This document shows, one piece after another, positions 28,999 through 52,215 of a DNA stretch of 64,000 nucleotides. The translations under genes and the position numbers were made by a program. Numbering within the stretch: position 1 is the first letter of the stretch; each line of letters opens with the position of its first letter. Location of the stretch: NCBI GenBank assembly GCA_051294905.1, contig CM119372.1, forward strand, positions 38,566,001 through 38,630,000, read 5' to 3'. The notes beneath the pieces were generated by a model. That model did not search any database. It had not been told where the DNA came from and saw only the letters and a program-made list of their open reading frames with translations. Source of the stretch: Botryllus schlosseri (lineage: Eukaryota).

Positions 28999-31900
28999 TT
29001 CTAGTATTCCCGGATTATCGCGCACTGTGACTTGTAAATGTGCAATGTGCATTGTGCATAGGCTACTGCATAGTTTAATTCGTTATGGGCATGGCGCAAT
29101 GTGCATGGCACAGTGTTTAATTCGATTATTCGATTTGTTTCAACCGGAAAATATTATATTCAGATAAACTTGATCGACACCGGATGGACTGGTAACGAGT
29201 GCACCAATATCGAACGTCAAACCATTGGCCATTTGGTACAAGTCGAATTTTTATTGATCACGTCGTTATATCAACCATATCGCTCTTACTACAGTTACAG
29301 TTGAATAATAATCGCACATTTAAAGTTGAATTGAGCTGTATGGCTTAATGTTAACGAGTACAGTGCCAGTGTTAAAACGCCGCATCAGAATTTTAATGCT
29401 GTACAAGTAGTGAGGGTATCGACTTTATACGCAGGCCATTCCCCTGCCTGAGGCTATTTACGTTCGTCATCACCCTAATTGCCACGCCTGACGACCAATG
29501 CCACGCCTAGATATTTTAATGTTTTGTGAATTTCAATACCGATTTTCCATGTGTATTTAGCAATATGTATTGAATAACTTGGTTCCGAGAAATAAATAAC
29601 ATTCATTATACGTTAGATGATTAAATTCCGCATTATTCGTTAGATGATTAAATTCCGACACTTTATCTTAACTTGCTTTCGAAAAATAAATATAAATTCA
29701 GATTATACATAAGTTTCCAAAACTCTTGATGTCTATGCAAGGCTATATTCGCCAGATAATATTATTATGTGTATTTGGACTTTGTATTTTAGCGGATGAC
29801 ATGAGCTCTCAGATAATACTCATCAACGTTGAACTATTGCGGCGGTTTTATGATGATTACGTTAGAAGATTAAATTCCAATCTCGCGCAATCAATTTATG
29901 TGTATTTAAGACTATATATGATACACAAGACCTCTGTAAATATTGAGAAATGGCATCATCACTAATTAATTAATGTTCATTTATTTCGAAAAAATTGCAT
30001 AATATATCAGTAATACCGTTAACGTCACAAACGCATCCAGCACGACCAGACGGCGTGAAACAACGCTTTCGCTCGATTCTTGTAGTCGCGACATTTCATA
30101 CGATTCAGTCCTTTTCATGTCACTAGAATAAGGGTAATTAAACCGACAGTGAAACGCCGCCGGCGTCCAATAACGTAATAATGTAAGCTGCGTCGGGTGC
30201 TGCTCTAATGTTAGGAGCGAATATACTAGAAATTCCACGTCTGGACACCTGTAAGCAGGTGAGCATACTACCGTAGTAAAACGCATAACAGAATTCACGC
30301 AAAAGTCGATATTGCTTTGTGATGATTTTGATGTTGTTCCATATCGATTGGGAAGATAGGACTCCTAATTTCCTAACTAACTACATAATCCCTAGTAACG
30401 CAGTCAGACGCATAACGGAATTTACGCAAAATCGGTATTGCTCTGCGATAATTTTGATCACTATGTTTTGATAATAACTTGCTTTGATGTTGTTCCATAT
30501 CGATTGGGAAGATAGCACACCTAATTTCGTAACTAACTACATAATCCCTAGTAACGTAGTCAGACGCATAACGGAATTAACGCAAATCGGCATTGCTCTG
30601 CGATAATTTTGATCACTATGTTTTGATAATGACTTGCTTCCGAGAAATAAATAACATTCATTATACGTTAGATGATACTTTTCCTTTATATTCTATTATG
30701 TGTATTTAGGTCTAATGCGACATCCCTATGTTGGCGACAGGCCTGGTTTGAACACACTAATTTTGCAAATTAAACTTATCACTCACCACGGACACTCAAT
30801 GAAGAGCACCCTGGAGCACCCACATAAATGCTCTACAATTCTTGACTTATAAGATACTGAGCATATAATAAGCTGACAAAACTGATACTTGAGTACTCCG
30901 AAGTGTACAAGTACTTTACCTTTACACGACGTTTTGTTAAATGAATACTAATGGTACGCGAATGATCATAGACTAAGCTTGCTTTCAGAGTTGGAAACTA
31001 AATGCATATGAAAATTTAACTACGTTTTCCCCACACGCATCAAATGTAGGCCTCCTCAAGTGTTTATGAGGCGGCAAATAGTTCGAAGGTTGTTGGTATG
31101 CAAGGACGTCACATAGAATTGTGGAGTTTTCTGTAAACTATAATCCAGTGATCTATTTTCAATCACTATACTTTTATTAATCTAAACTAAGTACTGTTAG
31201 TAGGCAGACCCTAGGAAAATATCCTCTGATAAAAGCTGGAGTAATTCGTTATCCGTGAAATAAATAGATAACGCGCAATATGAGCGGTGTTACGATGACT
31301 GACAAATACTTTGAATTAATGTATAGAAGTAGCGATTTCGAACTACGTGAAAAGTTAGTCGAGCTCACGCATTTTCCATTTTCAAAAGTCAAATTACGAC
31401 GATTTTTGTAAAATGAATACTTATTTTAATAAAAATTAAAAAAGAGCGAAAAATTACATTTTATCCCGTAACGCAACAAGAAAAACCGTATGAATTTAAA
31501 CTACTTATTCATGACATAATAATAATTCTGCTTGTACACTTTTTCACATTTGATAACACTTTTAGTAGTACTTAAAAGTTTCAGTTTTAAATAAAATTCG
31601 GAATATAAACTAATCAAAAATTTCGGTAACCAATTTCGCGTAGGCTATGCATACAAATGAGGAAAGTTACATCAACGCGTGATAACTAGTTGTATTATGT
31701 AGCTTGTAATTCATGCGAGTTTCGAAACTTTTACACTGAGTCTTTTAAAGTAGATGGAAACGAAAAAAAACTAATCGAAAAAATTTGCGAAGTTTGGACG
31801 CGGCATATTTAGGTTTTTTAAAAATTATTCATACCCATGACTCGAAATATTGTTAACTAACTTATGTTTTCGACATAAGATAAGCGTGAAGTGAACAAAT

Positions 31901-33140
31901 TTCGATGTTGCGCAAACACCACAAACTTTGCTTGCTTTCAGAGCAGGCAACTAAATGCAAGACAGACTTTACGCAAAAGTCGCTGTTCTGAAAATTTTGT
32001 CAAGTTAATAGTTTGAAAACTTATACTTGAGCACTACGAAATGTACAAGTACTTTACCTTTACACGACGTTTTTTGTAAAATGAATACGAATTTTAGTAA
32101 AAATAAAAAATAAAAATGAGCGAAAAATAACATTTTATCCCGGAAAGCAACAAGAAAAATCGTATGAATTTGTAAACTACTCATTAACGACATAACAATA
32201 ATTCTACTTGTACACTCTTTCACATTTTATAACACTTTTAGTAGTACTTAACGGTTTCAGTTTTAAATAAAATTCGGAATATAAACCAATCGAAAAATTC
32301 GGTAACCAATTTCGCGTAGGCTATGCATACAAATGAGGAAAGTTCGCGTGTTAACTAGTCGTATTTTGTAGCTTGTAATTCATGCAAGTAAGTCGGACAA
32401 ATTCGTCGCAAGAACACGACTCTAATGGACATAACTAAATGAAAATTTTGTCAAGTAGATATTTTTCGGTATGCTTAATTCGATGTTGTTCCATACCGAA
32501 TAGCACTCGTCAAGGTTATACAAGCATAACCCTAAACTACTCTTTACTTCACAAAATATAAAGTTAATAAAGTAAGCAGATTTGTATGAAAACTCGTTAA
32601 ATAGAAGTAAAAGTAGCCTAGAAACATAACTGCTTACTGAAAAATCGTTACGTAGAAGTGGGGTTAGTCTACGAACATAACCACTTACTTACTTTGAAAT
32701 CTCAACTTGTACTTGTATTCGTACTTTACCTTTGCACGGCGTTTTTGTATAATGAATACTAATTTTATTAAAAAAGTAAACAAAAAGCGCAAAAATTACA
32801 TTTTATCCCGGAACGCAGCAAGAAAAATCATATAAATTTTATAAAGTAGATAGAAAACTACACTATTCCGATGCACTAAAGACTCTTACACTCTGGATTT
32901 TGTGTAGTATATACTAATTTTACATTGCGGAGTATTCCATAGAGGTTAATCCAGTGATCCTCCTTCTGTTTTCAATCACGATCCGCTTATTATTCTAGGC
33001 TTCGAACCCCACACCCAGTACGTTTTATGGGGATTAATATTTTTAGATTAAATATAGCGTATCGAGACTTCGTGAAACTTACTTGGAAATAGTTATTTCT
33101 ACCCTAATTTAAAAGATTTCTCAGATATCGTAGCAACGGA

Positions 33141-33223
33141 ACTGGGTTGGCCGAGCGGTTAAGGCGTTGGGCTTAAGTTTCAATGAACAAGTGTTCATGT
33201 AGGTTCGAACCCCACACCCAGTA
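33141..33223 (+). tRNA. tRNA-Leu(TAA)-like gene/pseudogene in left arm
   Basis: Acceptor stem ACTGGGT/ACCCAGT, A box TGGCCGAGCGG, anticodon loop CT-TAA-GT, long variable arm, GGTTCGAACCC, TTTT terminator; one T-stem mismatch. Confidence 0.7.
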
Positions 33224-33993
33224 CGTTTTACGGGGATTAATATTTTTAGATTCAAATATAGCGTATCGAGAACTACTTATTCATGACATAATAATAATTC
33301 TACTTGTACACTTTTTCGTATTTTATAACACTTTTAGCAGTTCTTAACAGTTTAAGTTTTGATTAAAATTCGGAATATAAACTATTCCAAAAAATTCATG
33401 AAGTCCTGATACGCTTTATCTGAGTTTAAAAAATTATTCATCCTAATCTGCCTCATCATCATATGCTTGTAACTAGTTCCGGACTTGCTTGCATCATCGG
33501 CTGCGCGGTGCTAGTCTTCTTGGCCACATGAAATAGGATGTTTTAGCTTCAACCTCAACGCATTAGCACACTGAATTTAAATATTGGCGATAAATAATAT
33601 ACAGTAGCTCCAATTTTAATGAAAAATAAAAATAAAAAAGCGCGAAAAATTGCATTTATCCTGGAACGCACCAAGAAAAACCGTATGAATTTGTAAAGTA
33701 GTTAGAAAACTACACTATTCCGCTACACTAAAGACTTTGACACTCCGGATTTTCTATAGTGTATACTAATTTTACATTGCGGAGTATTCAGTAAAGTATA
33801 ATCCAGTGATCCTCCTTCTATTTTCAATCACGATCCTCTTATTTGTCTAGGCTACGAACCCCACACCCAGTACGTTTTATGGGGATTAATATTTTTAGAG
33901 TCATGTATGGCGTATCGAGACTTCGTGAAACTTACTTGGAAATAGTTACTTCTACCCTAATTTAAAAGGTTTCTCAGATATCGTTGCAATGGA

Positions 33994-34076
33994 GCTGGGT
34001 TGACCGAGCGGTTAAGGCGTTGGAATCAAGTTTCAATGAACCGGTGTTCATGTGGGTTCGAACCCAACGCCCAGTA
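33994..34076 (+). tRNA. tRNA-Leu(CAA)-like pseudogene, duplicate in left arm
   Basis: Same layout as 33141-33223 with loop AT-CAA-GT and more mismatches. Confidence 0.55.
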
Positions 34077-37000
34077 CGTTCTACGGGGATTAATATTTTT
34101 AGATTCAAATATAGCGTATCGAGTACTTTTTCTCAACTGTGCTAAAACTTTTTTCACTCCGTATTTCTGTAGTATATACTAATTTACAATACCGCATTTG
34201 TAATTCGTGCAAGTACAGGAATATCATAGTTCTTGTAACAATGTTGTATGCGCACAATATATGTTTATCATAAGTCCTACAAATTCATGATTTCGCCCTA
34301 GTTTGAGTTTTAGAAAATATTATACCTACATCGCGACATCTTTCAAAAACAAAACCATGATCAATGCTTGAGAGATCATGTTTGCTATTTTTCATTGGCA
34401 TAAGTCATTCTGGACCGCAAAAACGCATTGTACGATATAGATGAAACTTAAGAAAATCCTAGTATCCTCATTTTCAAAGTAGCCGAAAATATTCGGGTTC
34501 ATTTCAATATGAATATACTATTTAATTGTATATTGAAGTTCTGTACCTCCAAGAAGCTCTTCAAAGTAGCTTAGATCTCGAAATAAGCCCTGACTCGCTA
34601 TTCTCCTCAAACCATGGAATTGTCACGAGTATCACCTTCGATCACTGAAGAAAAGGATGAAATTATATCCGAAGCATATTTCTTGACCAGAAATTTTATC
34701 ATGTACGAACTCGACTTATAATATAGGCCTGTTTCAAATTCAAGACAGTTTCAGTGTTAAACAAAAATGTACCTTGAATACTAACTTTTATGATGTGAAA
34801 TATTATATGCATCAACGAAGAAACGTCACTTTTACAATGGTTCGGTATGATTTCTATATTATTACACTCTCGTTATTGGACTGTGGTGTGACGCTGAGCT
34901 ATATCTCGATGCCTGCGCTTCCGCATTTATTTTTTCGATGTATTCTGCCCTATGTAGATTTAACATAAGGAAGGTTACTTCACTCATAAAATTCGAAATA
35001 CGTATTTGCTCGAGTTGAAGCCATAACGCTTGGAGTGAAATTTTACGTGATTTTCGTTAATATCCAACCGGGCTAATTTCGAAATGTAAATTGAAAAACT
35101 CAAATACCGCATAGTAGGACTTCGCAGATTTTCAATTCATTTTTGCTATTTTTTCATGGTGATAAGTCATTCGGGACGGTGAAATGTATTGTAGGAAATA
35201 GATGAAACTGATACAATTCATCACGACCCCTGAAAAAAGTACATTACATTTAAACATTTTATTAGCAGGAAATCGAAATACCACAAACTGTGCTAACCTT
35301 CGGAGTTGTTAAGTAAAGAAGTACTCATACTTCTTCGGAGTACCCAAGTAGGTTTTTCGCCTACACGCACCAAATACTCTCAAGTCCTTATGATATTGGA
35401 GTGCTTCAACTTCATGATAGTTATAGTATTAAGCAGAAATATACCTGGTGTACTACCGTTTTGCTTACTCAGAAATGACTACTTCGTTCTTATTTTGAAG
35501 GATTCCTCGCTCGACGCGAAATTTTATTAAGTTTTGAATAATATCCAACATGTAGGTTCAATTTGAAGGGTACTTCGTCAAACTCAAATATTGCACAGGG
35601 AGAGTTCGCAAATTCTCGATGTATTATTGGTATTTTTATTGCAGTAAGTCATTCTGCAGTGCGAAAATGCATCGTAGGATATAGATGAAACTGACACCGC
35701 TCACCAAGACCACTGGACCACCGAAAAAAGTACATTTCAACATTTTAGTAGCAGTAAATTCCTAGTAAAGTACAAGAAGTGATGATTTCCGAGTGAGTTG
35801 AAAAGTAAGTATTGAAGGTATAGTTTGCTCGAACACCGAAAACTCAAAAATAGAAGAAGATGCAGTGTAAATAGTTGATATCTTGATTAAGTTTAGCGCA
35901 AGCAGGCCGAACCTATACTTCAGTACTCCAAAATGTACAACTACTTCGCTATGAACACCCTCCACGTAAAACGTGACTAGGTTTTAGTCTTTTAGACTAC
36001 TTTATCGCTACTTGGCAGTTTCAGTTTTAGATAAAATTTGGAATAAAAAAAAAACTAGCTCATTCACCCACTTGGAAATCTCTTCTTCAACCTTCACTTG
36101 AGTGGAGCAAGTAGATCTCATTTATTTTTAATTCCACATGTACACTCGACCATATTTTATGACTTACATAATTAATTTTCTCTATATTTGAAGTCAAGTC
36201 TGTCAAATAGCAGTATATGTTACGATGAGCTTATATTCGTTATGTTTGATCATTCTGACTAACGATATTCATTAGGTGAGCTCTCCAGTGATAGTCTTAG
36301 GACTTGGAACAGTGTTATATGACATCATAGCGATACGAAGTTACGACAGTTTATAATTAGCTACCTTACGAAACCAAATTTCGTTAGTTCATCTCCACCT
36401 TCAAATATCGCGTTATACAAATATTGTTTATACGGAACAAATACATATATGGCTATGTTGTTGCAATCTTCAAAAAAGTACCTCCCTCAGTATCCAATTT
36501 CTCGTGGGCTATGCATACAAATGAGGACAGTTACATCAACGAGTGGTAACTTGTTGTATTATGTAGCTAGTAATTAGTGCAAGTAAGTCCGCAACTACTG
36601 TTCAAGGCCTTTTCCGCGTTCTTAATAATATCACCTCAAGTTTACTCAAGTATCTCCAATTTGATACTCGAGCACTAAATCCTTCTTTTCCGCGGGCATG
36701 TTAGAGGACATAGGGCGATATTCAAACAATTCGCAATTTTGCTGGAATACAAGTACAATTAGGGATCTAAAAGTAACTAATATAGATGGTTATGTTTGTA
36801 GATTACTTACCCTTCTACTCAGAGGTTTTTCAGGTGGAACTACCTACCTTTAGGACTTCAAATGCTAAAGTAGTTAGAGCTTACGTTTGTATCACCTTAA
36901 CAAGTGGCATTATCAGATATGAAAATGATATTATCACATAATACCAGAAGTTAACACACGTCAATGTGTTTCGGACTTCACGAGAAATTGGTTACTAAGA

Positions 37001-37107
37001 GAAGTATATTCTTGTATACACAATAGCGGAGAGAATCTTTAAATTGTAGTAAGCAGGCCGATGGGTATTCATTGAGTTGGATAAGCATAAAAAACATTCC
37101 CGCGCGC

Positions 37108-37151
37108 TTCTAAACCTAACTCTGCCTAACCCTACCACCTAATCCTAAGAC
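37108..37151. repeat. Non-palindromic central loop of degenerate telomere-like CCTAA repeats
   Basis: ttctaaacctaactctgcctaaccctaccacctaatcctaagac, closed by cccgcgcgc/gcgcgcggg. Confidence 0.8.
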
Positions 37152-40100
37152 GCGCGCGGGAATGTTTTTTATGCTTATCCAACTCAATGAATACCCATCG
37201 GCCTGCTTACTACAATTTAAAGATTCTCTCCGCTATTGTGTATACAAGAATATACTTCTCTTAGTAACCAATTTCTCGTGAAGTCCGAAACACATTGACG
37301 TGTGTTAACTTCTGGTATTATGTGATAATATCATTTTCATATCTGATAATGCCACTTGTTAAGGTGATACAAACGTAAGCTCTAACTACTTTAGCATTTG
37401 AAGTCCTAAAGGTAGGTAGTTCCACCGGAAAAACCTCTGAGTAGTAGGGTAAGTAATCTACAAACATAACCATCTATATTAGTTACTTTTAGATCCCTAA
37501 TTGTACTTGTATTCCAGCAAAATTGCGAATTGTTTGAATATCGCCCTATGTCCTCTAACATGCCCGCGGAAAAGAAGGATTTAGTGCTCGAGTATCAAAT
37601 TGGAGATACTCGAGTAAACTTGAGGTGATATTATTAAGAACGCGGAAAAGGCCTTGAACAGTAGTTGCGGACTTACTTGCACTAATTACTAGCTACATAA
37701 TACAACAAGTTACCACTCGTTGATGTAACTGTCCTCATTTGTATGCATAGCCCACGAGAAATTGGATACTGAGGGAGGTACTTTTTTGAAGATTGCAACA
37801 ACATAGCCATATATGTATTTGTTCCGTATAAACAATATTTGTATAACGCGATATTTGAAGGTGGAGATGAACTAACGAAATTTGGTTTCGTAAGGTAGCT
37901 AATTATAAACTGTCGTAACTTCGTATCGCTATGATGTCATATAACACTGTTCCAAGTCCTAAGACTATCACTGGAGAGCTCACCTAATGAATATCGTTAG
38001 TCAGAATGATCAAACATAACGAATATAAGCTCATCGTAACATATACTGCTATTTGACAGACTTGACTTCAAATATAGAGAAAATTAATTATGTAAGTCAT
38101 AAAATATGGTCGAGTGTACATGTGGAATTAAAAATAAATGAGATCTACTTGCTCCACTCAAGTGAAGGTTGAAGAAGAGATTTCCAAGTGGGTGAATGAG
38201 CTAGTTTTTTTTTTATTCCAAATTTTATCTAAAACTGAAACTGCCAAGTAGCGATAAAGTAGTCTAAAAGACTAAAACCTAGTCACGTTTTACGTGGAGG
38301 GTGTTCATAGCGAAGTAGTTGTACATTTTGGAGTACTGAAGTATAGGTTCGGCCTGCTTGCGCTAAACTTAATCAAGATATCAACTATTTACACTGCATC
38401 TTCTTCTATTTTTGAGTTTTCGGTGTTCGAGCAAACTATACCTTCAATACTTACTTTTCAACTCACTCGGAAATCATCACTTCTTGTACTTTACTAGGAA
38501 TTTACTGCTACTAAAATGTTGAAATGTACTTTTTTCGGTGGTCCAGTGGTCTTGGTGAGCGGTGTCAGTTTCATCTATATCCTACGATGCATTTTCGCAC
38601 TGCAGAATGACTTACTGCAATAAAAATACCAATAATACATCGAGAATTTGCGAACTCTCCCTGTGCAATATTTGAGTTTGACGAAGTACCCTTCAAATTG
38701 AACCTACATGTTGGATATTATTCAAAACTTAATAAAATTTCGCGTCGAGCGAGGAATCCTTCAAAATAAGAACGAAGTAGTCATTTCTGAGTAAGCAAAA
38801 CGGTAGTACACCAGGTATATTTCTGCTTAATACTATAACTATCATGAAGTTGAAGCACTCCAATATCATAAGGACTTGAGAGTATTTGGTGCGTGTAGGC
38901 GAAAAACCTACTTGGGTACTCCGAAGAAGTATGAGTACTTCTTTACTTAACAACTCCGAAGGTTAGCGCAGTTTGTGGTATTTCGATTTCCTGCTAATAA
39001 AATGTTTAAATGTAATGTACTTTTTTCAGGGGTCGTGATGAATTGTATCAGTTTCATCTATTTCCTACAATACATTTCACCGTCCCGAATGACTTATCAC
39101 CATGAAAAAATAGCAAAAATGAATTGAAAATCTGCGAAGTCCTACTATGCGGTATTTGAGTTTTTCAATTTACATTTCGAAATTAGCCCGGTTGATATTA
39201 ACGAAAATCACGTAAAATTTCACTCCAAGCGTTATGGCTTCAACTCGAGCAAACACGTATTTCGAATTTTATGAGTGAAGTAACCTTCCTTATGTTAAAT
39301 CTACATAGGGCAGAATACATCGAAAAAATAAATGCGGAAGCCCAGGCATCGAGATATAGCTCAGCGTCACACCACAGTCCAATAACGAGAGTGTAATAAT
39401 ATAGAAATCATACCGAACCATTGTAAAAGTGACGTTTCTTCGTTGATGCATATAATATTTCACATCATAAAAGTTAGTATTCAAGGTACATTTTTGTTTA
39501 ACACTGAAACTGTCTTGAATTTGAAACAGGCCTATATTATAAGTCGAGTTCGTACATGATAAAATTTCTGGTCAAGGAATATGCTTCGGATATAATTTCA
39601 TCCTTTTCTTCAGTGATCGAAGGTGATACTCGTGACAATTCCATGGTTTGAGGAGAATAGCGAGTCAGGGCTTATTTCGAGATCTAAGCTACTTTGAAGA
39701 GCTTCTTGGAGGTACAGAACTTCAATATACAATTAAATAGTATATTCATATTGAAATGAACCCGAATATTTTCGGCTACTTTGAAAATGAGGATACTAGG
39801 ATTTTCTTAAGTTTCATCTATATCGTACAATGCGTTTTTGCGGTCCAGAATGACTTATGCCAATGAAAAATAGCAAACATGATCTCTCAAGCATTGATCA
39901 TGGTTTTGTTTTTGAAAGATGTCGCGATGTAGGTATAATATTTTCTAAAACTCAAACTAGGGCGAAATCATGAATTTGTAGGACTTATGATAAACATATA
40001 TTGTGCGCATACAACATTGTTACAAGAACTATGATATTCCTGTACTTGCACGAATTACAAATGCGGTATTGTAAATTAGTATATACTACAGAAATACGGA

Positions 40101-40181
40101 GTGAAAAAAGTTTTAGCACAGTTGAGAAAAAGTACTCGATACGCTATATTTGAATCTAAAAATATTAATCCCCGTAGAACG

Positions 40182-40264
40182 TACTGGGCGTTGGGTTCGA
40201 ACCCACATGAACACCGGTTCATTGAAACTTGATTCCAACGCCTTAACCGCTCGGTCAACCCAGC
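40182..40264 (-). tRNA. Mirror copy of the tRNA-Leu(CAA)-like sequence
   Basis: Reverse complement of 33994-34076. Confidence 0.55.
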
Positions 40265-41034
40265 TCCATTGCAACGATATCTGAGAAACCTTTTAAATTA
40301 GGGTAGAAGTAACTATTTCCAAGTAAGTTTCACGAAGTCTCGATACGCCATACATGACTCTAAAAATATTAATCCCCATAAAACGTACTGGGTGTGGGGT
40401 TCGTAGCCTAGACAAATAAGAGGATCGTGATTGAAAATAGAAGGAGGATCACTGGATTATACTTTACTGAATACTCCGCAATGTAAAATTAGTATACACT
40501 ATAGAAAATCCGGAGTGTCAAAGTCTTTAGTGTAGCGGAATAGTGTAGTTTTCTAACTACTTTACAAATTCATACGGTTTTTCTTGGTGCGTTCCAGGAT
40601 AAATGCAATTTTTCGCGCTTTTTTATTTTTATTTTTCATTAAAATTGGAGCTACTGTATATTATTTATCGCCAATATTTAAATTCAGTGTGCTAATGCGT
40701 TGAGGTTGAAGCTAAAACATCCTATTTCATGTGGCCAAGAAGACTAGCACCGCGCAGCCGATGATGCAAGCAAGTCCGGAACTAGTTACAAGCATATGAT
40801 GATGAGGCAGATTAGGATGAATAATTTTTTAAACTCAGATAAAGCGTATCAGGACTTCATGAATTTTTTGGAATAGTTTATATTCCGAATTTTAATCAAA
40901 ACTTAAACTGTTAAGAACTGCTAAAAGTGTTATAAAATACGAAAAAGTGTACAAGTAGAATTATTATTATGTCATGAATAAGTAGTTCTCGATACGCTAT
41001 ATTTGAATCTAAAAATATTAATCCCCGTAAAACG

Positions 41035-41117
41035 TACTGGGTGTGGGGTTCGAACCTACATGAACACTTGTTCATTGAAACATAAGCCCAACGCCTTAAC
41101 CGCTCGGCCAACCCAGT
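41035..41117 (-). tRNA. Mirror copy of the tRNA-Leu-like sequence with anticodon TAT
   Basis: Reverse complement of 33141-33223 except that the loop reads CT-TAT-GT. Confidence 0.6.
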
Positions 41118-44100
41118 TCCGTTGCTACGATATCTGAGAAATCTTTTAAATTAGGGTAGAAATAACTATTTCCAAGTAAGTTTCACGAAGTCTCGATACG
41201 CTATATTTAATCTAAAAATATTAATCCCCATAAAACGTACTGGGTGTGGGGTTCGAAGCCTAGAATAATAAGCGGATCGTGATTGAAAACAGAAGGAGGA
41301 TCACTGGATTAACCTCTATGGAATACTCCGCAATGTAAAATTAGTATATACTACACAAAATCCAGAGTGTAAGAGTCTTTAGTGCATCGGAATAGTGTAG
41401 TTTTCTATCTACTTTATAAAATTTATATGATTTTTCTTGCTGCGTTCCGGGATAAAATGTAATTTTTGCGCTTTTTGTTTACTTTTTTAATAAAATTAGT
41501 ATTCATTATACAAAAACGCCGTGCAAAGGTAAAGTACGAATACAAGTACAAGTTGAGATTTCAAAGTAAGTAAGTGGTTATGTTCGTAGACTAACCCCAC
41601 TTCTACGTAACGATTTTTCAGTAAGCAGTTATGTTTCTAGGCTACTTTTACTTCTATTTAACGAGTTTTCATACAAATCTGCTTACTTTATTAACTTTAT
41701 ATTTTGTGAAGTAAAGAGTAGTTTAGGGTTATGCTTGTATAACCTTGACGAGTGCTATTCGGTATGGAACAACATCGAATTAAGCATACCGAAAAATATC
41801 TACTTGACAAAATTTTCATTTAGTTATGTCCATTAGAGTCGTGTTCTTGCGACGAATTTGTCCGACTTACTTGCATGAATTACAAGCTACAAAATACGAC
41901 TAGTTAACACGCGAACTTTCCTCATTTGTATGCATAGCCTACGCGAAATTGGTTACCGAATTTTTCGATTGGTTTATATTCCGAATTTTATTTAAAACTG
42001 AAACCGTTAAGTACTACTAAAAGTGTTATAAAATGTGAAAGAGTGTACAAGTAGAATTATTGTTATGTCGTTAATGAGTAGTTTACAAATTCATACGATT
42101 TTTCTTGTTGCTTTCCGGGATAAAATGTTATTTTTCGCTCATTTTTATTTTTTATTTTTACTAAAATTCGTATTCATTTTACAAAAAACGTCGTGTAAAG
42201 GTAAAGTACTTGTACATTTCGTAGTGCTCAAGTATAAGTTTTCAAACTATTAACTTGACAAAATTTTCAGAACAGCGACTTTTGCGTAAAGTCTGTCTTG
42301 CATTTAGTTGCCTGCTCTGAAAGCAAGCAAAGTTTGTGGTGTTTGCGCAACATCGAAATTTGTTCACTTCACGCTTATCTTATGTCGAAAACATAAGTTA
42401 GTTAACAATATTTCGAGTCATGGGTATGAATAATTTTTAAAAAACCTAAATATGCCGCGTCCAAACTTCGTAAATTTTTTCGATTAGTTTTTTTTCGTTT
42501 CCATCTACTTTAAAAGACTCAGTGTAAAAGTTTCGAAACTCGCATGAATTACAAGCTACATAATACAACTAGTTATCACGCGTTGATGTAACTTTCCTCA
42601 TTTGTATGCATAGCCTACGCGAAATTGGTTACCGAAATTTTTGATTAGTTTATATTCCGAATTTTATTTAAAACTGAAACTTTTAAGTACTACTAAAAGT
42701 GTTATCAAATGTGAAAAAGTGTACAAGCAGAATTATTATTATGTCATGAATAAGTAGTTTAAATTCATACGGTTTTTCTTGTTGCGTTACGGGATAAAAT
42801 GTAATTTTTCGCTCTTTTTTAATTTTTATTAAAATAAGTATTCATTTTACAAAAATCGTCGTAATTTGACTTTTGAAAATGGAAAATGCGTGAGCTCGAC
42901 TAACTTTTCACGTAGTTCGAAATCGCTACTTCTATACATTAATTCAAAGTATTTGTCAGTCATCGTAACACCGCTCATATTGCGCGTTATCTATTTATTT
43001 CACGGATAACGAATTACTCCAGCTTTTATCAGAGGATATTTTCCTAGGGTCTGCCTACTAACAGTACTTAGTTTAGATTAATAAAAGTATAGTGATTGAA
43101 AATAGATCACTGGATTATAGTTTACAGAAAACTCCACAATTCTATGTGACGTCCTTGCATACCAACAACCTTCGAACTATTTGCCGCCTCATAAACACTT
43201 GAGGAGGCCTACATTTGATGCGTGTGGGGAAAACGTAGTTAAATTTTCATATGCATTTAGTTTCCAACTCTGAAAGCAAGCTTAGTCTATGATCATTCGC
43301 GTACCATTAGTATTCATTTAACAAAACGTCGTGTAAAGGTAAAGTACTTGTACATTTCGGAGTACTCAAGTATCAGTTTTGTCAGCTTATTATATGCTCA
43401 GTATCTTATAAGTCAAGAATTGTAGAGCATTTATGTGGGTGCTCCAGGGTGCTCTTCATTGAGTGTCCGTGGTGAGTGATAAGTTTAATTTGCAAAATTA
43501 GTGTGTTCAAACCAGGCCTGTCGCCAACATAGGGATGTCGCATTAGACCTAAATACACATAATAGAATATAAAGGAAAAGTATCATCTAACGTATAATGA
43601 ATGTTATTTATTTCTCGGAAGCAAGTCATTATCAAAACATAGTGATCAAAATTATCGCAGAGCAATGCCGATTTGCGTTAATTCCGTTATGCGTCTGACT
43701 ACGTTACTAGGGATTATGTAGTTAGTTACGAAATTAGGTGTGCTATCTTCCCAATCGATATGGAACAACATCAAAGCAAGTTATTATCAAAACATAGTGA
43801 TCAAAATTATCGCAGAGCAATACCGATTTTGCGTAAATTCCGTTATGCGTCTGACTGCGTTACTAGGGATTATGTAGTTAGTTAGGAAATTAGGAGTCCT
43901 ATCTTCCCAATCGATATGGAACAACATCAAAATCATCACAAAGCAATATCGACTTTTGCGTGAATTCTGTTATGCGTTTTACTACGGTAGTATGCTCACC
44001 TGCTTACAGGTGTCCAGACGTGGAATTTCTAGTATATTCGCTCCTAACATTAGAGCAGCACCCGACGCAGCTTACATTATTACGTTATTGGACGCCGGCG

Positions 44101-45302
44101 GCGTTTCACTGTCGGTTTAATTACCCTTATTCTAGTGACATGAAAAGGACTGAATCGTATGAAATGTCGCGACTACAAGAATCGAGCGAAAGCGTTGTTT
44201 CACGCCGTCTGGTCGTGCTGGATGCGTTTGTGACGTTAACGGTATTACTGATATATTATGCAATTTTTTCGAAATAAATGAACATTAATTAATTAGTGAT
44301 GATGCCATTTCTCAATATTTACAGAGGTCTTGTGTATCATATATAGTCTTAAATACACATAAATTGATTGCGCGAGATTGGAATTTAATCTTCTAACGTA
44401 ATCATCATAAAACCGCCGCAATAGTTCAACGTTGATGAGTATTATCTGAGAGCTCATGTCATCCGCTAAAATACAAAGTCCAAATACACATAATAATATT
44501 ATCTGGCGAATATAGCCTTGCATAGACATCAAGAGTTTTGGAAACTTATGTATAATCTGAATTTATATTTATTTTTCGAAAGCAAGTTAAGATAAAGTGT
44601 CGGAATTTAATCATCTAACGAATAATGCGGAATTTAATCATCTAACGTATAATGAATGTTATTTATTTCTCGGAACCAAGTTATTCAATACATATTGCTA
44701 AATACACATGGAAAATCGGTATTGAAATTCACAAAACATTAAAATATCTAGGCGTGGCATTGGTCGTCATATAGGCGTGGCAATTAGGGTGATGACGAAC
44801 GTAAATAGCCTCAGGCAGGGGAATGGCCTGCGTATAAAGTCGATACCCTCACTACTTGTACACCAGTGTTGGGATGACTCGAGTCTTGACTTGACTCGAG
44901 TCACCTTTTTCGTGTGACTTGACTTGACTCGAGTCACTTTGCAAAAATGACTTGACTTGACTCGGCGCTTCAAAAATGTGTATTGACTCGTGACTCGGAG
45001 CAAAATTCACGAGTCAATTTCAAGTCATTAAGTAAACTGTGTCGATTAAATAACCATATCTTGTTTATGTTTGGGTTGTTCGCGATACGCCGATGTCACT
45101 TGTGAAAGCAACCGGTCATTCGCTGATTGCTCGTTTCACTGATTCTCCATTGTCACATCACAAATAATTTGACCGCTAACGAAACAATCACAGCTTACGT
45201 TATCTTAGTAGCAATAGATTAATCTAATAGCAACGTGTATCCTTGTTTTTAAGACATTACATTGCGGATGTGCTCACATTTACCAACCATCTTGTTTGAT
45301 AT

Positions 45303-46780
45303 TATTATATTCTTTATTCACAGTAAGAAACTGGTCAATACACTCATAATCCGGGGAGCAACCTGCACCCAAAGGAAAATGGCGAGATTGGAGTAAATTT
45401 TTTAAAATTTCAGTAATGCAGTCAAATTGTTATTCTTATGCAATACATGGAGAAGTCAGATTACAGAATTGCAGTAGATGAAGCATTGGCAAGGGTTACA
45501 GAGCAGAGGTAGAGATGATTGAAAATGAAGAATAGAAATTACAGAAATGATGCTGTGATTCACTAGTATAATTTTAGTCCAGAGGTGCATTCAACGCCTT
45601 TCAATCGTTGTGCTTTGGCGCATATTCTCATTTTTAATTCTTCTTGCAACATTGTCAGTTTTTCTGTTGACTGCAGTTTGGTTTGGTGCTCCAGTTCTAT
45701 TCTTTTTACTTTATTTTTTACTTTGCGGGAAACATTTCCTTTTTTTAGTTCTGAGAGTATCGCAACGTCACACCTTGGTTTTGCGATTTTGTTTTCAATT
45801 CTGCGTTGCCAAACTGGCGTATGCCTTCCCCTTTTTTGTTGATAGTTCTTGGTATTTTGCAGTGCCTTTCTGAGATAACTGCCGCAGTGCTATAAATGAG
45901 GTTGTTGATTGTTGTCAAGGGACATTGTGGTTTTTCTCCTTGTTTGTCATTTAGAGTTGCAGGCAGTATGGTTTCTGTCAAAATTTTGTTCGCTACTGCA
46001 ATATCCGTTTTCAGTTTCTTTGTAATTTGTAAGTCAGGTAACTGCACTCTGTCATTTACATTCAATGTGGATTTCATTCGGTCGATGATTTGATTTTTGA
46101 TCTCCAATTCTAATTCCGTGTCTATGTCGCCATCATTAGGTGTTGTTGATTCATTCGGGTGCCCGGTGGTATTTTGTAATTCTACTTCTGCGATGTTCGG
46201 GTCATCAAGTGATTGTTGTGGATCAGGTGATCTTGGCCGAATTGCAGTTCCATTGCCTCAGAGTTTTCTATGTTTTTGTTACACATTTCTCCCTCGATTT
46301 CTGCGAATTCTTGTTCAGATAATTTTTTATTTTTTATTACACAACGTCTCATTGTTGCCAGGGTATTGGCAGTCATGGTTGGAGAGTTGTTCGTTCTCTC
46401 TTTCCATTTTTGAAAAGTTCCTTCGGTTACTCCTGCCGAGTTTTCAAATTTGGTTAAGAAGTAACATCTCATTATTTCTTTATACTCTTCTTTACTCCAT
46501 CTGTGTCTCTTCTTTTTTTCTTTTGCAGCAGAGCTGTTTTGTGAGCCACAGTTCGGTGTTGCACAGGCGCCATGTTGAGAAATATCTTCTCTTTGGTGTT
46601 CCTGTGTGGTCGGAGTTGACGAGTCCTCTGGGGTCATCCGCTTGTTCCCGCGGCGGGTACGTCCAGGTGCGATATATCCAAATCGTTTCGCAGGCATTCA
46701 CAGCAGTGATGCGTCAGTTCAGAAGTTAGGTTAATTTAAAGTAATTAATTAATTATTAATTAATTCCTTAATACAACCAA
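45303..46780 (-). mobile_element. Internally deleted R4/Dong-like non-LTR retrotransposon
   Basis: KRHRWSKEEYKEIMRCYF...W...LATMRRCVIKNKKLSEQEFAEI and RVQLPDL...INNLIYSTAAVI resemble the R4/Dong ORF N-terminus; (TAA)n-like sequence at both ends; frameshifted, no RT domain. Confidence 0.7.
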
Positions 46781-47122
46781 ATATTATTATTATTATTAAT
46801 AGCACATTTACAGTGGCGCTTATCGCCTTTTTCAGGCTTTGTGCACCACGACACGAATATTTGTAATGTTCATTGGTCTTTGTCTTCAGTAATCTTGGGG
46901 ACGACTTCTTAGATCTTTCGCTCATTCATACGTCAGACTCTCTCACATCCATGCGTCCCGGTCGTGGTCTTTACTGCCGACTTCTAGCGCGGCTCACTTT
47001 CGTTCTGGGCTTTTCAATGCACTGCAACGGCAGTGAGGTCGGCGATGAGGAGCCCAGAAAAACCTCCGACACATAGAAGTTGATCCGAACCGGGATTCGA
47101 ACCACTACCATTGGTGTCGTGA
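46781..47122 (-). mobile_element. 5'-truncated tRNA-derived SINE with (TAA)n tail
   Basis: B box GGTTCGAATCCC and 3' gataagcgcca, shared with 53285-53477; 15-bp TSD catcttgtttgatat at 45288-45302 and 47123-47137. Confidence 0.8.
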
Positions 47123-48284
47123 CATCTTGTTTGATATAAAACGAACGAATATAGTTTACGCGTTTATATTCTCACGGATGTGTATTTGGGCAGTGTATTG
47201 TACCACATCAATTTCTTCAACTTCTCGAGGCTTCGTATTCGATCCCCTATATTGGCTGATAAAATCAGACTGTAGATGTAACTATACAATTACTCGCGTA
47301 TTTTATTAGCAGTTCCACGTTTGCGTGAGTGCTGCAACATCGTTTTGCATGTATGTTTATCTTTATATTCGTTATTTGATTCAAGATAAATGGCCAATTC
47401 ATCTGTCCTTAATCTAGTTAGCAAAATGTAATGACTTTGCATCATCACTCATACTTCGAATTTTCAATTTGACTTGAATCGTGACTTGACTCGTGACTTG
47501 ACTTGACTTGACTCGATTTGACTCGAGTCACCTCCAAAAAACGAGCGACTTGACTTGACTCGAGTCACCTTTGAAAATCGATTGACTTGACTTGACTCGA
47601 GTCAAAATGTGCAATGACTCGAGATGACTCGTGACTTGAAGGTAGTGACTTGATCCCAACACTGCTGTACACAGCAATGGTACGGAGTAAAGTGCGTTGT
47701 GCAACTATAGAGTATGACTGGAGTGACGACTCGATTGTTCTCCCATTGTTAGCCGGCAGAATGGTCACGGTCAGATGGATCCACCCAAAACAGGATCGCT
47801 CAGTGCTTGTTTCAATGGCGTTCAAGGCGATTCGCCGTGTATTTCTTGAAGTTGCGTCGGAATTAGTTAGACAGTTCAACATTTAGGTAGCGGTGGCGAG
47901 TCGTTATGACTAGTGAATAATACTGTGCAGCCTATGTTACATTTCTCACGAGATTGATGTGATATTGTGGCTTTGATCCTTTGTAGAGTTTGCTACGTAT
48001 ATGAATATAATGACAGAAGGTATAGATTCTATATAGAATAGCTGGTTCGTGTGCATTGGCTATTGTGAGATGAATTCATGGAAAGAAAGACTGAAGAATA
48101 CTACAAAGTGAACAAGTGGAAAGATCTTGAACTATACCGATATGCAATTCACGATATCGTTGATTGAAAATATGTCCTATATTAACTGCAGAAACTCGAG
48201 TATGAATATAACAAATAATATTGCAACTGTCTTGTAGTCTTATATAATGCCTGTCAGATAACCGCAGAAACTGAGTATGACTAG

Positions 48285-49599
48285 CAGGACCGTAACTGCC
48301 GCACCCCAAACCCCCCAATTAGGGGGGGGCGAGCTCGAAGGGGGCCCAAAATTATTTCGCGAATTAGCATAAATTATTGAGTATTTTTCAAAAATTTATG
48401 CAACTTTTTCAAAAAAATTTCGCGCTGCGTGTGATTTCAAGTTGCCAACTTTCTTAGTTATTTGGTAGCCTACTCTTCCCCAAGACAAAATACGCAAAAT
48501 TTATCGAAATGGGCATATCGGCGAGACATTTAAAGTTTTAGAACATGTAACATGCGACTCCAAGAAGTGTGCCAGAACGATCGGCAGCGAGAAAACCTGG
48601 GCCAAAAAGGACTGCCCGCTTACGCTGACCGAAAACTTCGTTATATATGCAAAATGCATATAGGTATAATTTTCCATAGGCGCCTAAATGACTGGCGCCG
48701 AATGTTCCTGTCTTGGCAATCTGAACCTCAGAAGACAAATACCATAATCCGCAGGAAAAAATTGTATGCCCATTGCCCATAAAGAAATACCAATTTGAAA
48801 TCACGTTCGTCGTTAGTCTAGTACATTTGGGCGATTCTGTATTTTTTTATATAACAGACAGGAGATCACAAAATGACATCATGAAACGAAGTCATACCAA
48901 CGGGGCCACCCGCCCGAATATGTTTAATTATTATTTAGGGGCCCTACAGTTTCCAAGCCACCTCATTCAGCCCTACCGGTAAATCTGACAACGTGAACAA
49001 GAAATTGATAGCAATATATATGCAATTCCCAATATTATTGACCGATTTTATCATGAATTATCGAATATTTTCGCGCTTTGAGCTGGCTCACTAAACTGTG
49101 GCCCTTATTTCGTGACAAAAGCGAACAACGTGATGGGGGGGAGGGGCGGTTTATCACCCTATGGGAGCCCAAGACCCAAGTTTTATTGGGGGGGGGCTGG
49201 CCAAGTGCTGTTTCGTTCCTGCGAACGGGTCAACGCCCGATGATGTTCAATTATTATTGAGGGCTCCTACCATTTCAAACACACCTCACTCAGGTCTACC
49301 GTTAAATCAGATTACGTGGGCAGAGAGAGGATAAAAATTGATAACAATATATATTCAATTCCCAATCATATTGACCGGTTAAATCATGAATTTTTAAATT
49401 TTTTGCGCTTTGCGCGTGTGGACGACTAAAGCTGCCCCACTAAACGGACGGTGAACACAGATGATGAGTAGCGGTACACAGCGTATAGCCAATGGGGGGT
49501 CTGGGGGGCGAGGCCCCCAGAAGTTCGGTTTATCACCCTATGAGGGGCCCATGACCAACGTTTTGGGGGGGGGGCTGACGAAGTGCGGTCACGGCCCTG
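48285..49599. mobile_element. hAT MITE (CAGGACCGT family) nested in the P-like element
   Basis: TIR caggaccgtaac/gtcacggccctg; TSD atgactag. Confidence 0.9.
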
Positions 49600-49886
49600 A
49601 TGACTAGAACAAGAGCCTTGTGTAATGTTAATGTTCTGCTTGAGCTCGACTCACAATAGCCAGAGCTTACTTCTTGAAAGTGTGCAAAATCGCACTTGAA
49701 GGGAATTCGTTTTCATTGCCATGAACACAGGAAGACGTCTGCCGGTCGACATTAGTAGTAAGCCAATGCACCACGTCAAGGTTTCGACCAATGCATTGGT
49801 TTCCTTTTTTAGGTAGGGAACCTCAATGTGGATAGGCAGCATTTGCCACAGAGAGAAAAAACTACCATACTAAAAGAGCATATTGT

Positions 49887-50915
49887 TCATTTTTTTTTCA
49901 AGCCATCTCGCAAACTTTTGGAAAATTTGGAGGACTTTTTTTGCTTCTCATGCAATGCAAACTTCGCAAAATTGTGAGACAAGATGTTATTCAAGTGTCT
50001 CATTGCCTTATCCATGACATCCTCGACCTCATTTAGGTCTGAGCCAGATTGAAGTGACACAGTATGAATTAATTTGTTAAAGAATGGATCACAGTGAATT
50101 GAGTCAAGTACCCTGAAAAAATTGATCTTTTTCAGGGGTTTTGCCATTTCTTTACTGTGGATAACATAAAAGCGGAGAACCATGCCATGAAACTGTTCAG
50201 ACGGGCTCTTCAATCCATCGACTTTCTTCTGCATCACTTTAATGAGGTTTCCCGATGGCGCTGCAGATGTTAGGCATGTGGCAATTGCTTCGTTAGCTTG
50301 CTTAGAAATGGCTCCAAAAAGCACTCCACCAATATATTCAAGTATGTCTAAAAACATGTCAAAGTTTTTCCATGGAAAGGCAAAGTATCAAAGGCTATTG
50401 ACTTACCAGATTCCTTGCTGTTGACTCCTCCAATCTCTGTGATTGGATCCTGTTCTTTACCGCACACGAGAGAATCAAACATCTTCAAAAGTAATGCTGA
50501 AGCTGGCAATTGCGGCAAACCCAGCAACTTGTTAGCTTGGTGACAGATATTAGAATAATGTTGATAAAATCCGTCAACACCAAGTTTGCAATATTCAGAA
50601 TGGAGTTGTTTCACCGATGGAACAGCTTTGATCACGTCTAGTTCCTCGAATGATGGGGCGCATTTAAAGTATTTTTTGGTATACACAAGCCCTATTCAAA
50701 ACAGCAATTACAGCATCCTCGGATATATCCCAAGTAGTGGTGGGAACTTTATGATTTTTGTAATGTTTTTTCAGAGCTTTCACAGTCGGAAAGGATGCTT
50801 CGCATTCCTCACAAATCACACCTTTCCAGTTATCGAGTCCTTCGAAACATTCTTCAATTTCCATTTCAGTCAGTCCCTCCCAGTCATCCCAAAGTGATGC
50901 AGCTAAATCAGTCAT
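49887..50915 (-). pseudogene. Frameshifted transposon-borne ORF with N-terminal C2H2 zinc finger
   Basis: Three overlapping ORF pieces: CEEC-x12-HYKNH finger, then LEYIGG and GLKSPS motifs like the YIAGY...GGLxxPS of P/THAP9-type transposon proteins. Confidence 0.6.
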
Positions 50916-51366
50916 GATACCGATTTCTATCCGTGACGAAATATGATCTAAATCTGGCGAAAAATATAACAGAGGCTACACGGTATTATTCACTAGTCAC
51001 AACGACTCGCCACCGCTGCCTAAATGTTGAACTGTCTAACTAATTGCGACGCAACTTCAAGAAATACACGAAGAATCGCCTTGAACGCCATTGAAACAAG
51101 CACTGAGCGATCCTGTTTTGGGTGGATCCATCTGACCGTGACCATTCTGCCGGCTAACAATGGGAGAACAATCGAGTCGTCACTCCAGTCATACTCTATA
51201 GTGCAACTATGATGTTATCGACAATTGACTAGTATTCATTATGTCGTCACAAGCCGATACGGCGGCACCTATGTGTTCGTTGCTGCATCCGATGTTACTG
51301 ACGGCTGACAGACTCTAGATTACTATAGATAACAAACCTACGGGTAAATTAGTAATCTATATAGAC

Positions 51367-52055
51367 CAGGGGTGGCCAACCTTCTCGGCTAAAGGGCCAC
51401 ATGAATTGAGTGCGCTGCCCACTAGCCGCGCCAAGCGCTTAAAAGTTTCGAAGTTAATATTATAATTACTTGGGTATATTGCGAGTCGACTGTATACCGC
51501 CCGCTGGGCTCAGTTTGCAAGGACAGGACTATTCGGCATCTGGACATATCGATATCGAAGATTTCCGCTAATATACGACAATCATTTTGTGCCTACATTT
51601 CATCGCCGACGATCTTTCTGCGAGTGTAAACGCAAAATACATTCTCTCGTAATTACGAATATAGTTCTACTCAATCGGCTAAATCAGGCGTTTTTTCATT
51701 TTCAGGTGGGGTAGGCTACAAAGAAAGAAATCGTGTGACAATTAAACACGCGAAGCGTGAAGAAAAATTTTACTACTAGTTTAGTTTATTGTAATGTATG
51801 ACGATTTACTAAAACTGTGACTGGACCCTGGATCTACCAATGCGTCGAAACTGATATTGTAGTCATCAACATCCCAAGTGTCGCGGCCAGACTAATCATA
51901 TTTTTGGTTGGCCTTGCAAGTTCACTATCTGACCATACAATTTTGATAATATAACAGAATTTCGATAATATAATGGGAAATTAGCTCGCGGGCTACTCAA
52001 AACCTTCTCGCGGGCCACATATGGCCCGCTGGTCGCGGCGGGTTGCCCACCCCTG
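51367..52055. mobile_element. hAT MITE
   Basis: TIR caggggtggccaacc/ggttgcccacccctg; TSD atatagac; same insertion present at 62932-63626. Confidence 0.92.
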
Positions 52056-52215
52056 ATATAGACAGACACCTTCGATGGTTTTCAGAGCCGGAGCCGGAGC
52101 TGGAGCCGGAGCAGTGGTAGCAATGCGGCTCCGGAGCTGGAACCGGAGCTAATGTATGATAGAAGAAAGCGCCGGAGCTGGAGCAATGCAAATTTACGGC
52201 TGCTCCAAAGCCCTG

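What the first reader, a model, noticed from the sequence alone, without database searches (positions are those of the whole stretch)
37095..37165. Telomere-like loop clamped by a CG-alternating stem at the symmetry axis
Seen: the only unpaired part is 44 nt with four CCTAA units and one CCCTAC (TTAGG-rich on the other strand), closed by cccgcgcgc/gcgcgcggg in otherwise AT-rich DNA. Known: TTAGGG is the usual animal telomere repeat. Inference: this is a hairpin end or turnaround point of a linear replicon, a telomerase-healed end that primed fold-back, or a resolution site. The G-rich strand might form a two-tier G-quadruplex.
Basis: partly seen in the sequence, partly recalled or inferred. 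Interest (0 to 1): 0.72.

Follow-up and report, generated by a model that had tools for sequence, protein, structure and literature searches.

The report
Hairpin turn of palindromic Maverick satellite
The short telomere-like loop is the shared turning point of a gene-less, 15-kb mirror-image jumping element that carries the ends of virus-like Maverick transposons in a sea-squirt-like genome; it probably lets the element fold into one long hairpin, and its telomere likeness is real but of unproven use.

Summary
The loop (37108-37151) and CG stem are real. They are the centre of a 15,451-bp palindrome (29406-44856) whose arms differ at only 10 substitutions and 2 indels. It has AGTAGT//ACTACT ends, a 6-bp TGTACA target duplication and no core genes: a non-autonomous Maverick/Polinton derivative in an ascidian-like host. 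The scan found this family before on other DNA. In contigs of four public runs the centre is multi-copy, shows no depth spike, and is kept in a copy lacking 1.1 kb of inner arm, so it is inherited, not a separate MITE. Both arms share this copy's private letters (40 of 40), so symmetry is renewed. The CG clamp is the strongest 9-bp stem among 7,685 arm 9-mers. Best reading: the loop is the closed end of a snap-back hairpin replicon, and a spacer that makes the integrated palindrome tolerable. Telomere likeness is significant (33 of 41 columns against TTAGGG; one POT1-type nonamer), but only 10 nt are perfect and all four TTAGG lack the third G. G-quadruplex support is weak, a resolvase site is unlikely, and flip/flop cannot be tested in a symmetric insert. 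Telomerase origin and capping by host proteins stay open.

The parts
37108..37151 (.). Central 44-nt asymmetric segment (36-nt loop 37112-37147, 3 inner pairs, one mismatch). C-rich on +, TTAGG-rich on -. Holds TAGGGTTAG on the - strand (37126-37134).
37099..37107 (+). Left half of the CG clamp (CCCGCGCGC), the most stable 9-bp closing stem in the arm
37152..37160 (+). Right half of the CG clamp; a variant lacking one CG step is seen in other copies
   Evidence: table 4
29406..37107 (+). Left arm, 7,702 bp, starting AGTAGT; internal sub-repeats; longest stop-to-stop frame 127 codons; no Pfam match in the six frames scanned
37152..44856 (-). Right arm, mirror of the left (10 substitutions, 2 indels), ending ACTACT
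29400..29405 (+). Left 6-bp target-site duplication TGTACA
44857..44862 (+). Right 6-bp target-site duplication TGTACA
44864..47672 (.). Older TIR element (CAGTGTTGGG...CCCAACACTG) with its 8-bp duplication CTGTACAC at 47665-47672. The palindrome sits inside the left copy of that 8-mer, which fixes the empty site and the order of insertion.
33141..34077 (+). Two tRNA-Leu-like sequences in the arm (33141-33224, 33994-34077), mirrored at 40181-40264 and 41034-41117

Best explanation
The loop is the inherited turning point of a gene-less, fully palindromic satellite of a Maverick/Polinton. SHOWN: Maverick-type ends and a 6-bp duplication; no core genes; near-identical arms; a centre shared by many copies; a clamp at the strongest short stem of the arm. 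INFERRED: a helper Maverick's terminal protein and protein-primed polymerase copy the excised element by strand displacement. The displaced strand snaps back into a 7.7-kb hairpin, whose open end is again a double-stranded origin and whose closed end is this loop. The CG clamp nucleates and holds the fold-back in AT-rich DNA, and the C-rich or G-rich loop cannot pair with itself and stays an open turn. Passage through the hairpin (mismatch repair in the stem, or re-synthesis of one arm from a 3' end folded back at the clamp) renews the symmetry, and the helper's integrase inserts the duplex. Once integrated, the 36-44-nt spacer with a GC-rich base lowers cruciform and lagging-strand hairpin formation, so the host tolerates the palindrome. 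On this reading the TTAGG motifs are a drifted relic or a binding motif and are not needed for the basic cycle.
For: Ends and duplication match the (AGT)2//(ACT)2 and 6-bp hallmarks (passages), and the empty site is recoverable from the neighbouring element's 8-bp duplication. The arms differ at 12 places in 7.7 kb, while 5,173 of 6,091 contigs laid from run X1 are under 99% alike to the stretch. At all 40 listed variant sites the mirror arm carries the same letter as the left arm, and at 25 of them at least 95% of X1 depth reads another letter. The loop bin is covered in 4 of 4 runs, at 0.22-0.37 of the adjoining arm bin, with no spike. One X19 contig joins 35986 to 37170 on the opposite strand, which I read as a copy lacking 1.1 kb of inner arm but keeping stem and loop. 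0 of 7,685 other arm 9-mers close the loop as stably as the clamp. The isolated loop is unstructured on both strands. Precedents: short palindromic DNAs arise in phi29 terminal-protein replication (passage); a 42-bp inverted repeat primes the Tetrahymena rDNA palindrome by fold-back (passage); a 52-bp spacer, unlike a 12-bp one, prevented frequent fork stalling in eukaryotic cells (passage).
Against: No free hairpin molecule, helper element or enzyme was seen by me: no genome was available, and the terminus search found no relative. A shared centre can reflect common descent alone. The loop-to-arm depth ratio is below the 0.5 expected if every copy carried this loop. Contig depth is no copy number, and one search showed only 40 of 244 variant rows and 15 of 24 joints, so loop variants were mostly not visible. 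As a 12-bp stem the clamp is not the best (11 of 7,679 are as stable). Earlier unchecked notes report subfamilies with 0.86-0.9-kb centres, so a short loop is not required for the lifestyle. Arm homogenisation could also come from gene conversion in the chromosome.
Confidence: 0.68

Rival explanations
1. Origin by telomerase healing (compatible with the best explanation): a broken Maverick end received about seven TTAGGG repeats, the 3' end folded back and primed synthesis of the second arm, and the tract then drifted.
For: Of eight repeat units tried, the loop aligns best to TTAGGG: score 46, 33 of 41 columns, 0 of 2,000 shuffles; TTAGGT scores 42, TTAGGC 40, TTAGG 38. TTAGGG is the telomere repeat of the tunicate Oikopleura 'as in other chordates' (passage); an earlier unchecked note reports TTAGGG ends in this genome.
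Against: The longest perfect run is 10 nt. 4 of 4 TTAGG are followed by A, T, C or T, not G; neutral decay at 15-30% would give this with p about 0.0005-0.008 (post hoc). Only 3 bp (TCT/AGA) could have primed the fold-back. Strand polarity says nothing in a palindrome.
Confidence: 0.3
2. Functional telomere mimicry: the single-stranded loop of the hairpin form binds host telomere-strand proteins (POT1/CST, or hnRNP A/B-type TTAGG binders), which shield it from hairpin-opening nucleases. Loss of the third G keeps binding motifs while avoiding a stable three-tier G-quadruplex that would stall the polymerase.
For: The window's only TAGGGTTAG nonamer lies in the loop. It is the title motif of Loayza et al. 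2004 (seen only in a reference list) and 9 of 10 letters of the tight POT1 decamer TTAGGGTTAG (passages). The loop is open in the fold. None of the 40 best-supported variant rows falls in the last 242 bp (p about 0.0008 if uniform).
Against: The decamer has a G at position 1. Binding data are for human POT1. Only the G-rich strand's hairpin would be capped, not the C-rich one. The row ranking is biased and 204 rows were hidden. Other subfamilies reportedly lack such a loop (unchecked).
Confidence: 0.17
3. A foldback-type cut-and-paste DNA transposon (FB/Galileo-like architecture) in which the loop is an inert remnant and the arms are homogenised in the chromosome.
For: The arms carry internal sub-repeats, as foldback elements do (FB structure recalled), and there is no polymerase gene.
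Against: The end motif and 6-bp duplication are those of Mavericks. FB-type duplications are 7-11 bp (recalled). Near-contiguous 7.7-kb arms and the clamp are not explained.
Confidence: 0.12
4. The centre is a resolution site (protelomerase, telomere resolvase, or a poxvirus-type concatemer junction) that is cut into two hairpin-ended half molecules.
For: It lies exactly at the axis and is shared among copies. Earlier unchecked notes report a telomere-repeat-associated tyrosine-recombinase element in this genome.
Against: Protelomerase targets are perfect palindromes across the axis, and poxvirus junctions are AT-rich (both recalled). Here the centre is a 36-nt asymmetric loop with a GC-rich base, and no resolvase is encoded.
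Confidence: 0.06
5. Loop plus stem is a small dispersed repeat (MITE or Helitron piece) that happens to sit at the axis.
For: Very high summed depth over the loop in X1 and X19. CCTAA-rich tracts occur in some insect repeats (recalled).
Against: Depth falls, not rises, at the loop. The share of laid contigs running on into unlike sequence is 0 (X1) and 0.05 (X19), although 0.27 and 0.32 in the two thinly covered runs. There is no target duplication around it, no second copy in the window and no Rfam family.
Confidence: 0.04
6. Assembly artefact from fold-back reads.
For: Near-perfect giant palindromes are a known long-read and amplification artefact (recalled).
Against: Different unique flanks, a clean 6-bp duplication nested in an older 8-bp duplication, 12 arm differences, and the loop present in runs of four studies.
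Confidence: 0.01

Closest known systems
Maverick/Polinton elements with (AGT)2//(ACT)2 ends (Barreat and Katzourakis 2021, PMC8097293; passages read)
   Same: End motif, 6-bp target duplication, length in the 12.7-24.6-kb range, terminal inverted repeats
   Different: Inverted arms are 7.7 kb (against 46-1,447 bp), meet at a 36-44-nt loop, and hold none of the core genes
Short palindromic by-products of phi29 terminal-protein replication (cited in PMC2175359, passage; Esteban et al. 1997 seen only as a reference; origin by template switching recalled)
   Same: Palindromic, helper-dependent replicons in a protein-primed system
   Different: Those arise in vitro when single-strand binding protein is lacking; this one is a natural, integrated family with one inherited centre
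Tetrahymena rDNA palindrome (42-bp inverted repeat, fold-back-primed synthesis; PMC3734650 passage)
   Same: A giant palindrome with a short non-palindromic centre closed by a short inverted repeat that can prime fold-back
   Different: Programmed chromosome breakage, telomeres at the outer ends, no integration; here a transposon with the telomere-like tract at the centre
Terminal palindromes of Halocafeteria virophages and polinton-like viruses (bioRxiv 10.64898/2026.07.28.741278, passages)
   Same: Hairpins proposed to prime replication in Polinton-related elements
   Different: 52-nt palindromes at the ends, mostly in elements without pPolB; here the whole element is the palindrome and the hairpin is central
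Hairpin telomeres and resolution sites (N15/Borrelia resolvases, poxvirus flip/flop ends, parvovirus hairpins) (recalled)
   Same: A covalently closed turn at the end of a linear duplex
   Different: No perfect axis palindrome, no AT-rich loop, no resolvase or Rep gene
Foldback transposons (Drosophila FB, Galileo) (recalled)
   Same: Long inverted arms with internal repeats; non-coding
   Different: Different ends and duplication length; arms here almost meet and are renewed to 99.8% identity

Membership tests
Maverick/Polinton (autonomous) | Conserved 6-bp end motif (AGT)2//(ACT)2 | tested here: met
   motif
Maverick/Polinton (autonomous) | 6-bp target-site duplication | tested here: met
   TGTACA on both sides; empty site confirmed by the neighbour's 8-bp duplication
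Maverick/Polinton (autonomous) | Core genes (pPolB, integrase, ATPase, protease, capsid proteins) | tested here: not met
   longest stop-to-stop frame 127 codons; 0 of 6 arm frames match Pfam
Non-autonomous Maverick derivative | An autonomous partner with the same termini in the host | not testable with these tools
   no genome held; terminus scans found no true relative; earlier unchecked notes report such partners
Non-autonomous Maverick derivative | Multi-copy with a shared structure | tested here: met
   6,091 (X1) and 473 (X19) contigs laid on the inner 1.5 kb, loop included; not a copy count
Telomerase-added telomere tract | Perfect tandem host repeat (TTAGGG)n | tested here: not met
   10-nt perfect run; 33 of 41 columns; 4 of 4 TTAGG lack the third G
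Telomerase-added telomere tract | Significant likeness to the host repeat, as expected of a decayed tract | tested here: met
   0 of 2,000 shuffles reach the score; TTAGGG best of 8 units; host repeat inferred
POT1-type single-strand binding site | TTAGGGTTAG decamer or TAGGGTTAG nonamer on an unpaired strand | tested here: inconclusive
   nonamer present, decamer 9 of 10; binding not testable here
G-quadruplex-forming sequence | Four or more G-tracts and a high G4 propensity | tested here: inconclusive
   six tracts (five GG, one GGG); G4Hunter 0.70 whole, 1.04 best 25-nt; none predicted by ViennaRNA
Protelomerase/resolvase target | Perfect palindrome across the axis (recalled) | tested here: not met
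   36-nt unpaired centre
Dispersed MITE/Helitron | Occurs in unrelated flanks, with its own target duplication and a depth spike | tested here: not met
   the tables are truncated and no genome-wide search was possible
Poxvirus-type hairpin end | Flip and flop isomers | not testable with these tools
   in a symmetric integrated duplex both orientations are present by construction

The most novel reading that the evidence does not exclude
A virus-like transposon's satellite replicates as a 7.7-kb DNA hairpin whose closed end was taken from a host telomere tract and is kept as a telomere mimic. The single-stranded loop recruits host POT1-type proteins to hide the hairpin from repair nucleases, while selection has removed the third G of most repeats so that no stable G-quadruplex blocks the helper polymerase.
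Probability: 0.13. Interest if true: 0.85.

Novelty: new variant of a known kind. Interest (0 to 1): 0.55.

Why it matters
How Mavericks/Polintons replicate has rested largely on a model (excision, panhandle, protein-primed synthesis; as drawn in the legend). A natural family of fully palindromic, gene-less satellites with a shared central turn and renewed arm symmetry would be a genomic record of single-stranded snap-back intermediates and a way to test that model. It also shows how a genome may tolerate many 15-kb palindromes through a roughly 40-nt spacer. If the loop binds telomere proteins, it would be a case of a mobile element mimicking a telomere at an internal hairpin. Searches listed no paper on such elements by title or abstract start, but the library lacks most subscription journals and Repbase. 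The scan itself noted the family before on other DNA.

Tried and rejected
Whole-genome search for other loops: no genome held. Exact 25-nt loop motif in metagenome contigs: 0 matches. Stem pattern in viral contigs: 120 or more loci; none of 121 spacers had more than one CCTAA/TTAGG, so these are chance GC matches. 18-nt terminus: 7 metagenome matches and 0 viral; none of the 127 fetched loci aligns to the arm by BLAST. Rfam on the centre: only two sub-threshold chance hits. Pfam on six arm frames: none. Look-up of earlier findings by the centre sequence: nothing. My first parse ('5 of 7 substitutions hit the third G', p 0.002) depends on the alignment and was replaced by the sturdier '4 of 4 TTAGG followed by non-G'. 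The depth peak at 36950-37049 is partly due to a 36-nt internal repeat and is not used as evidence of conservation. Runs X5 and X7 carry other organism labels and low depth; I do not count them as cross-species conservation. No full text was found on phi29 palindromes or adenovirus snap-back genomes. No supplements were read.

Full report
OBSERVATION. The described sequence is there. 37108-37151 is 44 nt with four CCTAA and one CCCTAC, between CCCGCGCGC and GCGCGCGGG. Three more pairs form behind a T/C mismatch, so the strict loop is 36 nt. Folded alone, the loop is unstructured on both strands. The motif density is beyond chance: 0 of 200,000 Markov 44-mers reach four units, and 3 of 200,000 shuffles of the loop do. 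No 44-nt arm window is as G/C-skewed (0 of 7,659).

CONTEXT. The loop is the axis of a 15,451-bp palindrome, 29406-44856. Its 7.7-kb arms differ at 10 substitutions, a 4-nt indel and a 1-nt indel. It begins AGTAGT, ends ACTACT, and is flanked by TGTACA on both sides. The right neighbour is a TIR element (44864-47664) followed by CTGTACAC. Removing the palindrome and one TGTACA restores CTGTACAC on that element's left, so the empty site, the 6-bp duplication and the order of insertion are fixed independently. These ends and this duplication are the Maverick/Polinton hallmarks in Barreat and Katzourakis 2021, whose inverted repeats span only 46-1,447 bp (PMC8097293, passages). The longest stop-to-stop frame in the element is 127 codons, and six arm frames have no Pfam match. 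The host looks like an ascidian: the only named relative of the window's IRF protein is from Styela clava, at 32% identity. No genome was held for this window. Earlier scan notes, unchecked, describe hundreds of such palindromes in this genome, some with 41-46-nt centres and some with 0.86-0.9-kb centres.

IS THE CENTRE SHARED? I laid 35700-37180 on contigs of 4 of the 22 runs listed. X1 gave 6,091 contigs (918, 2,165, 2,270 and 738 at 99+, 95-99, 90-95 and under 90% likeness) and X19 gave 473. The loop bin has summed depth 17,544 (X1) and 30,560 (X19). That is 0.25 and 0.37 of the adjoining arm bin (0.24 and 0.22 in the thinly covered X5 and X7), and above inner-arm bins such as 36100-36149 (641 and 2,761). 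The tool warns that this is no copy number, and 0.5 would be expected if every copy had this loop, so some copies may differ. There is no spike at the loop, and almost no X1 or X19 contigs run on into unlike DNA (0 and 0.05), which argues against a separate dispersed repeat. One X19 contig joins 35986 to 37170 on the opposite strand; I read this as a copy that lost 1.1 kb of inner arm and kept stem and loop. A two-letter shorter CG run is seen in 13 X1 contigs and 1 X19 contig. No other turning point appears among the 15 of 24 joints shown. Loop variants themselves were mostly hidden (40 of 244 rows shown, all at 35834-36938).

ARM SYMMETRY IS RENEWED. At those 40 sites the mirror arm of this copy carries the same letter as the left arm in 40 of 40 cases. 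At 25 of them (counted from the table) at least 95% of X1 depth reads another letter. So the two arms change together.

THE CLAMP. CCCGCGCGC closes the loop more stably than any other of 7,685 arm 9-mers or 7,689 7-mers; as a 12-mer, 11 of 7,679 do as well or better. The turn therefore sits at an unusually strong short stem, as expected of a fold-back nucleus or primer. A 42-bp inverted repeat does this job for the Tetrahymena rDNA palindrome (PMC3734650, passage), and repeats of 5-9 bp can drive palindromic duplication in yeast mutants (PMC7999016, passage). The same review reports that a 52-bp spacer, unlike a 12-bp one, prevented frequent fork stalling in eukaryotic cells, so a 36-44-nt loop may make the integrated palindrome tolerable. 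That GC-rich centres hinder cruciform extrusion is recalled.

TELOMERE LIKENESS. Of eight repeat units tried, the G-rich strand aligns best to TTAGGG (33 of 41 columns, 0 of 2,000 shuffles), the repeat of the tunicate Oikopleura (PMC8008620, passage). But the perfect run is 10 nt, and all four TTAGG are followed by A, T, C or T. Neutral decay would seldom do that (p 0.0005-0.008, post hoc). The loop is thus either an edited telomere relic or a set of TTAGG motifs of other origin. It holds the window's only TAGGGTTAG, which is 9 of 10 letters of the tight human POT1 site (PMC8853558, passages; the nonamer claim was seen only as a reference title there). G-quadruplex support is weak: six short G-tracts, G4Hunter 1.04 at best, matched by 36 regions of the window, and none predicted by ViennaRNA. 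Flip/flop cannot be scored in a symmetric insert. A resolvase site is unlikely, because the axis is asymmetric and GC-clamped (defining features recalled).

MECHANISM. Shown: Maverick ends, clean insertion, no core genes, shared centre, strongest clamp, concerted arms. Inferred (0.68): a helper Maverick's protein-primed polymerase copies the element by strand displacement; the displaced strand snaps back into a hairpin with a duplex origin at the open end and this loop at the closed end; repair or fold-back re-synthesis renews symmetry; and the helper's integrase inserts it. Short palindromic DNAs are a known by-product of phi29 terminal-protein replication (PMC2175359, passage; the primary paper was not read). 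Rivals: telomerase origin of the loop 0.3 (compatible with the above), capping by host telomere proteins 0.17, foldback cut-and-paste 0.12, resolution site 0.06, dispersed repeat 0.04, artefact 0.01.

COMPARISON AND NOVELTY. It works like a snap-back defective replicon of a protein-primed system. It is not an autonomous Maverick (core genes tested, not met) and not a telomere (perfect repeat tested, not met). I file it as a non-autonomous Maverick derivative, with the helper not seen by me (searches found no relative). Paper searches (listings and abstract starts, plus passages of two hits) gave no description of fully palindromic Mavericks; the nearest is terminal 52-nt palindromes in protist virophages. 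The library is incomplete, and no supplements were read. Verdict: a new variant of a known kind, already noted by this scan on other DNA. The loop adds a testable question about origin and host-protein binding. Interest 0.55; the boldest reading (telomere mimicry at the hairpin end) has probability 0.13 and would deserve 0.85.

Noticed in passing
window 51198-63794: About 1-kb inverted arms (86% alike) enclose an intronless 510-aa interferon-regulatory-factor ORF (54506-56038; PF00605 and PF10401), a second CAGTGTTGGG element start (56683) and a 640-bp foldback (60965-61606, 79%): possibly a TIR element carrying an immune gene.
   Followed up: partly
window 33141-33224, 33994-34077 and mirrors: Each arm carries two tRNA-Leu-like sequences followed by a T-rich tract. 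The arm mismatch at 33176/41082 turns the mirrored copy's anticodon from taa to tat. They might be polymerase III units, loosely like adenovirus VA RNA genes (recalled).
   Followed up: partly
window 34481-34565: An 85-nt piece of the arm is 92-94% alike to the ends of an inverted-repeat element at 553-1649: host repeat cargo inside the arm.
   Followed up: no
window 44864-47672: The TIR element beside the palindrome holds a degraded reading frame (46182-46697, no Pfam match), perhaps a nested retroelement piece.
   Followed up: partly
window 15458-16588: Intronless ORF of 376 aa that looks like a G-protein-coupled receptor by eye; a related fragment at 712-1137.
   Followed up: no
window 44770-44773: A 4-nt insertion in the right arm only, about 85 bp from the end.
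   Followed up: no
window 47704-51202: 263-bp inverted repeats (94%) around 3 kb, another probable TIR element.
   Followed up: no
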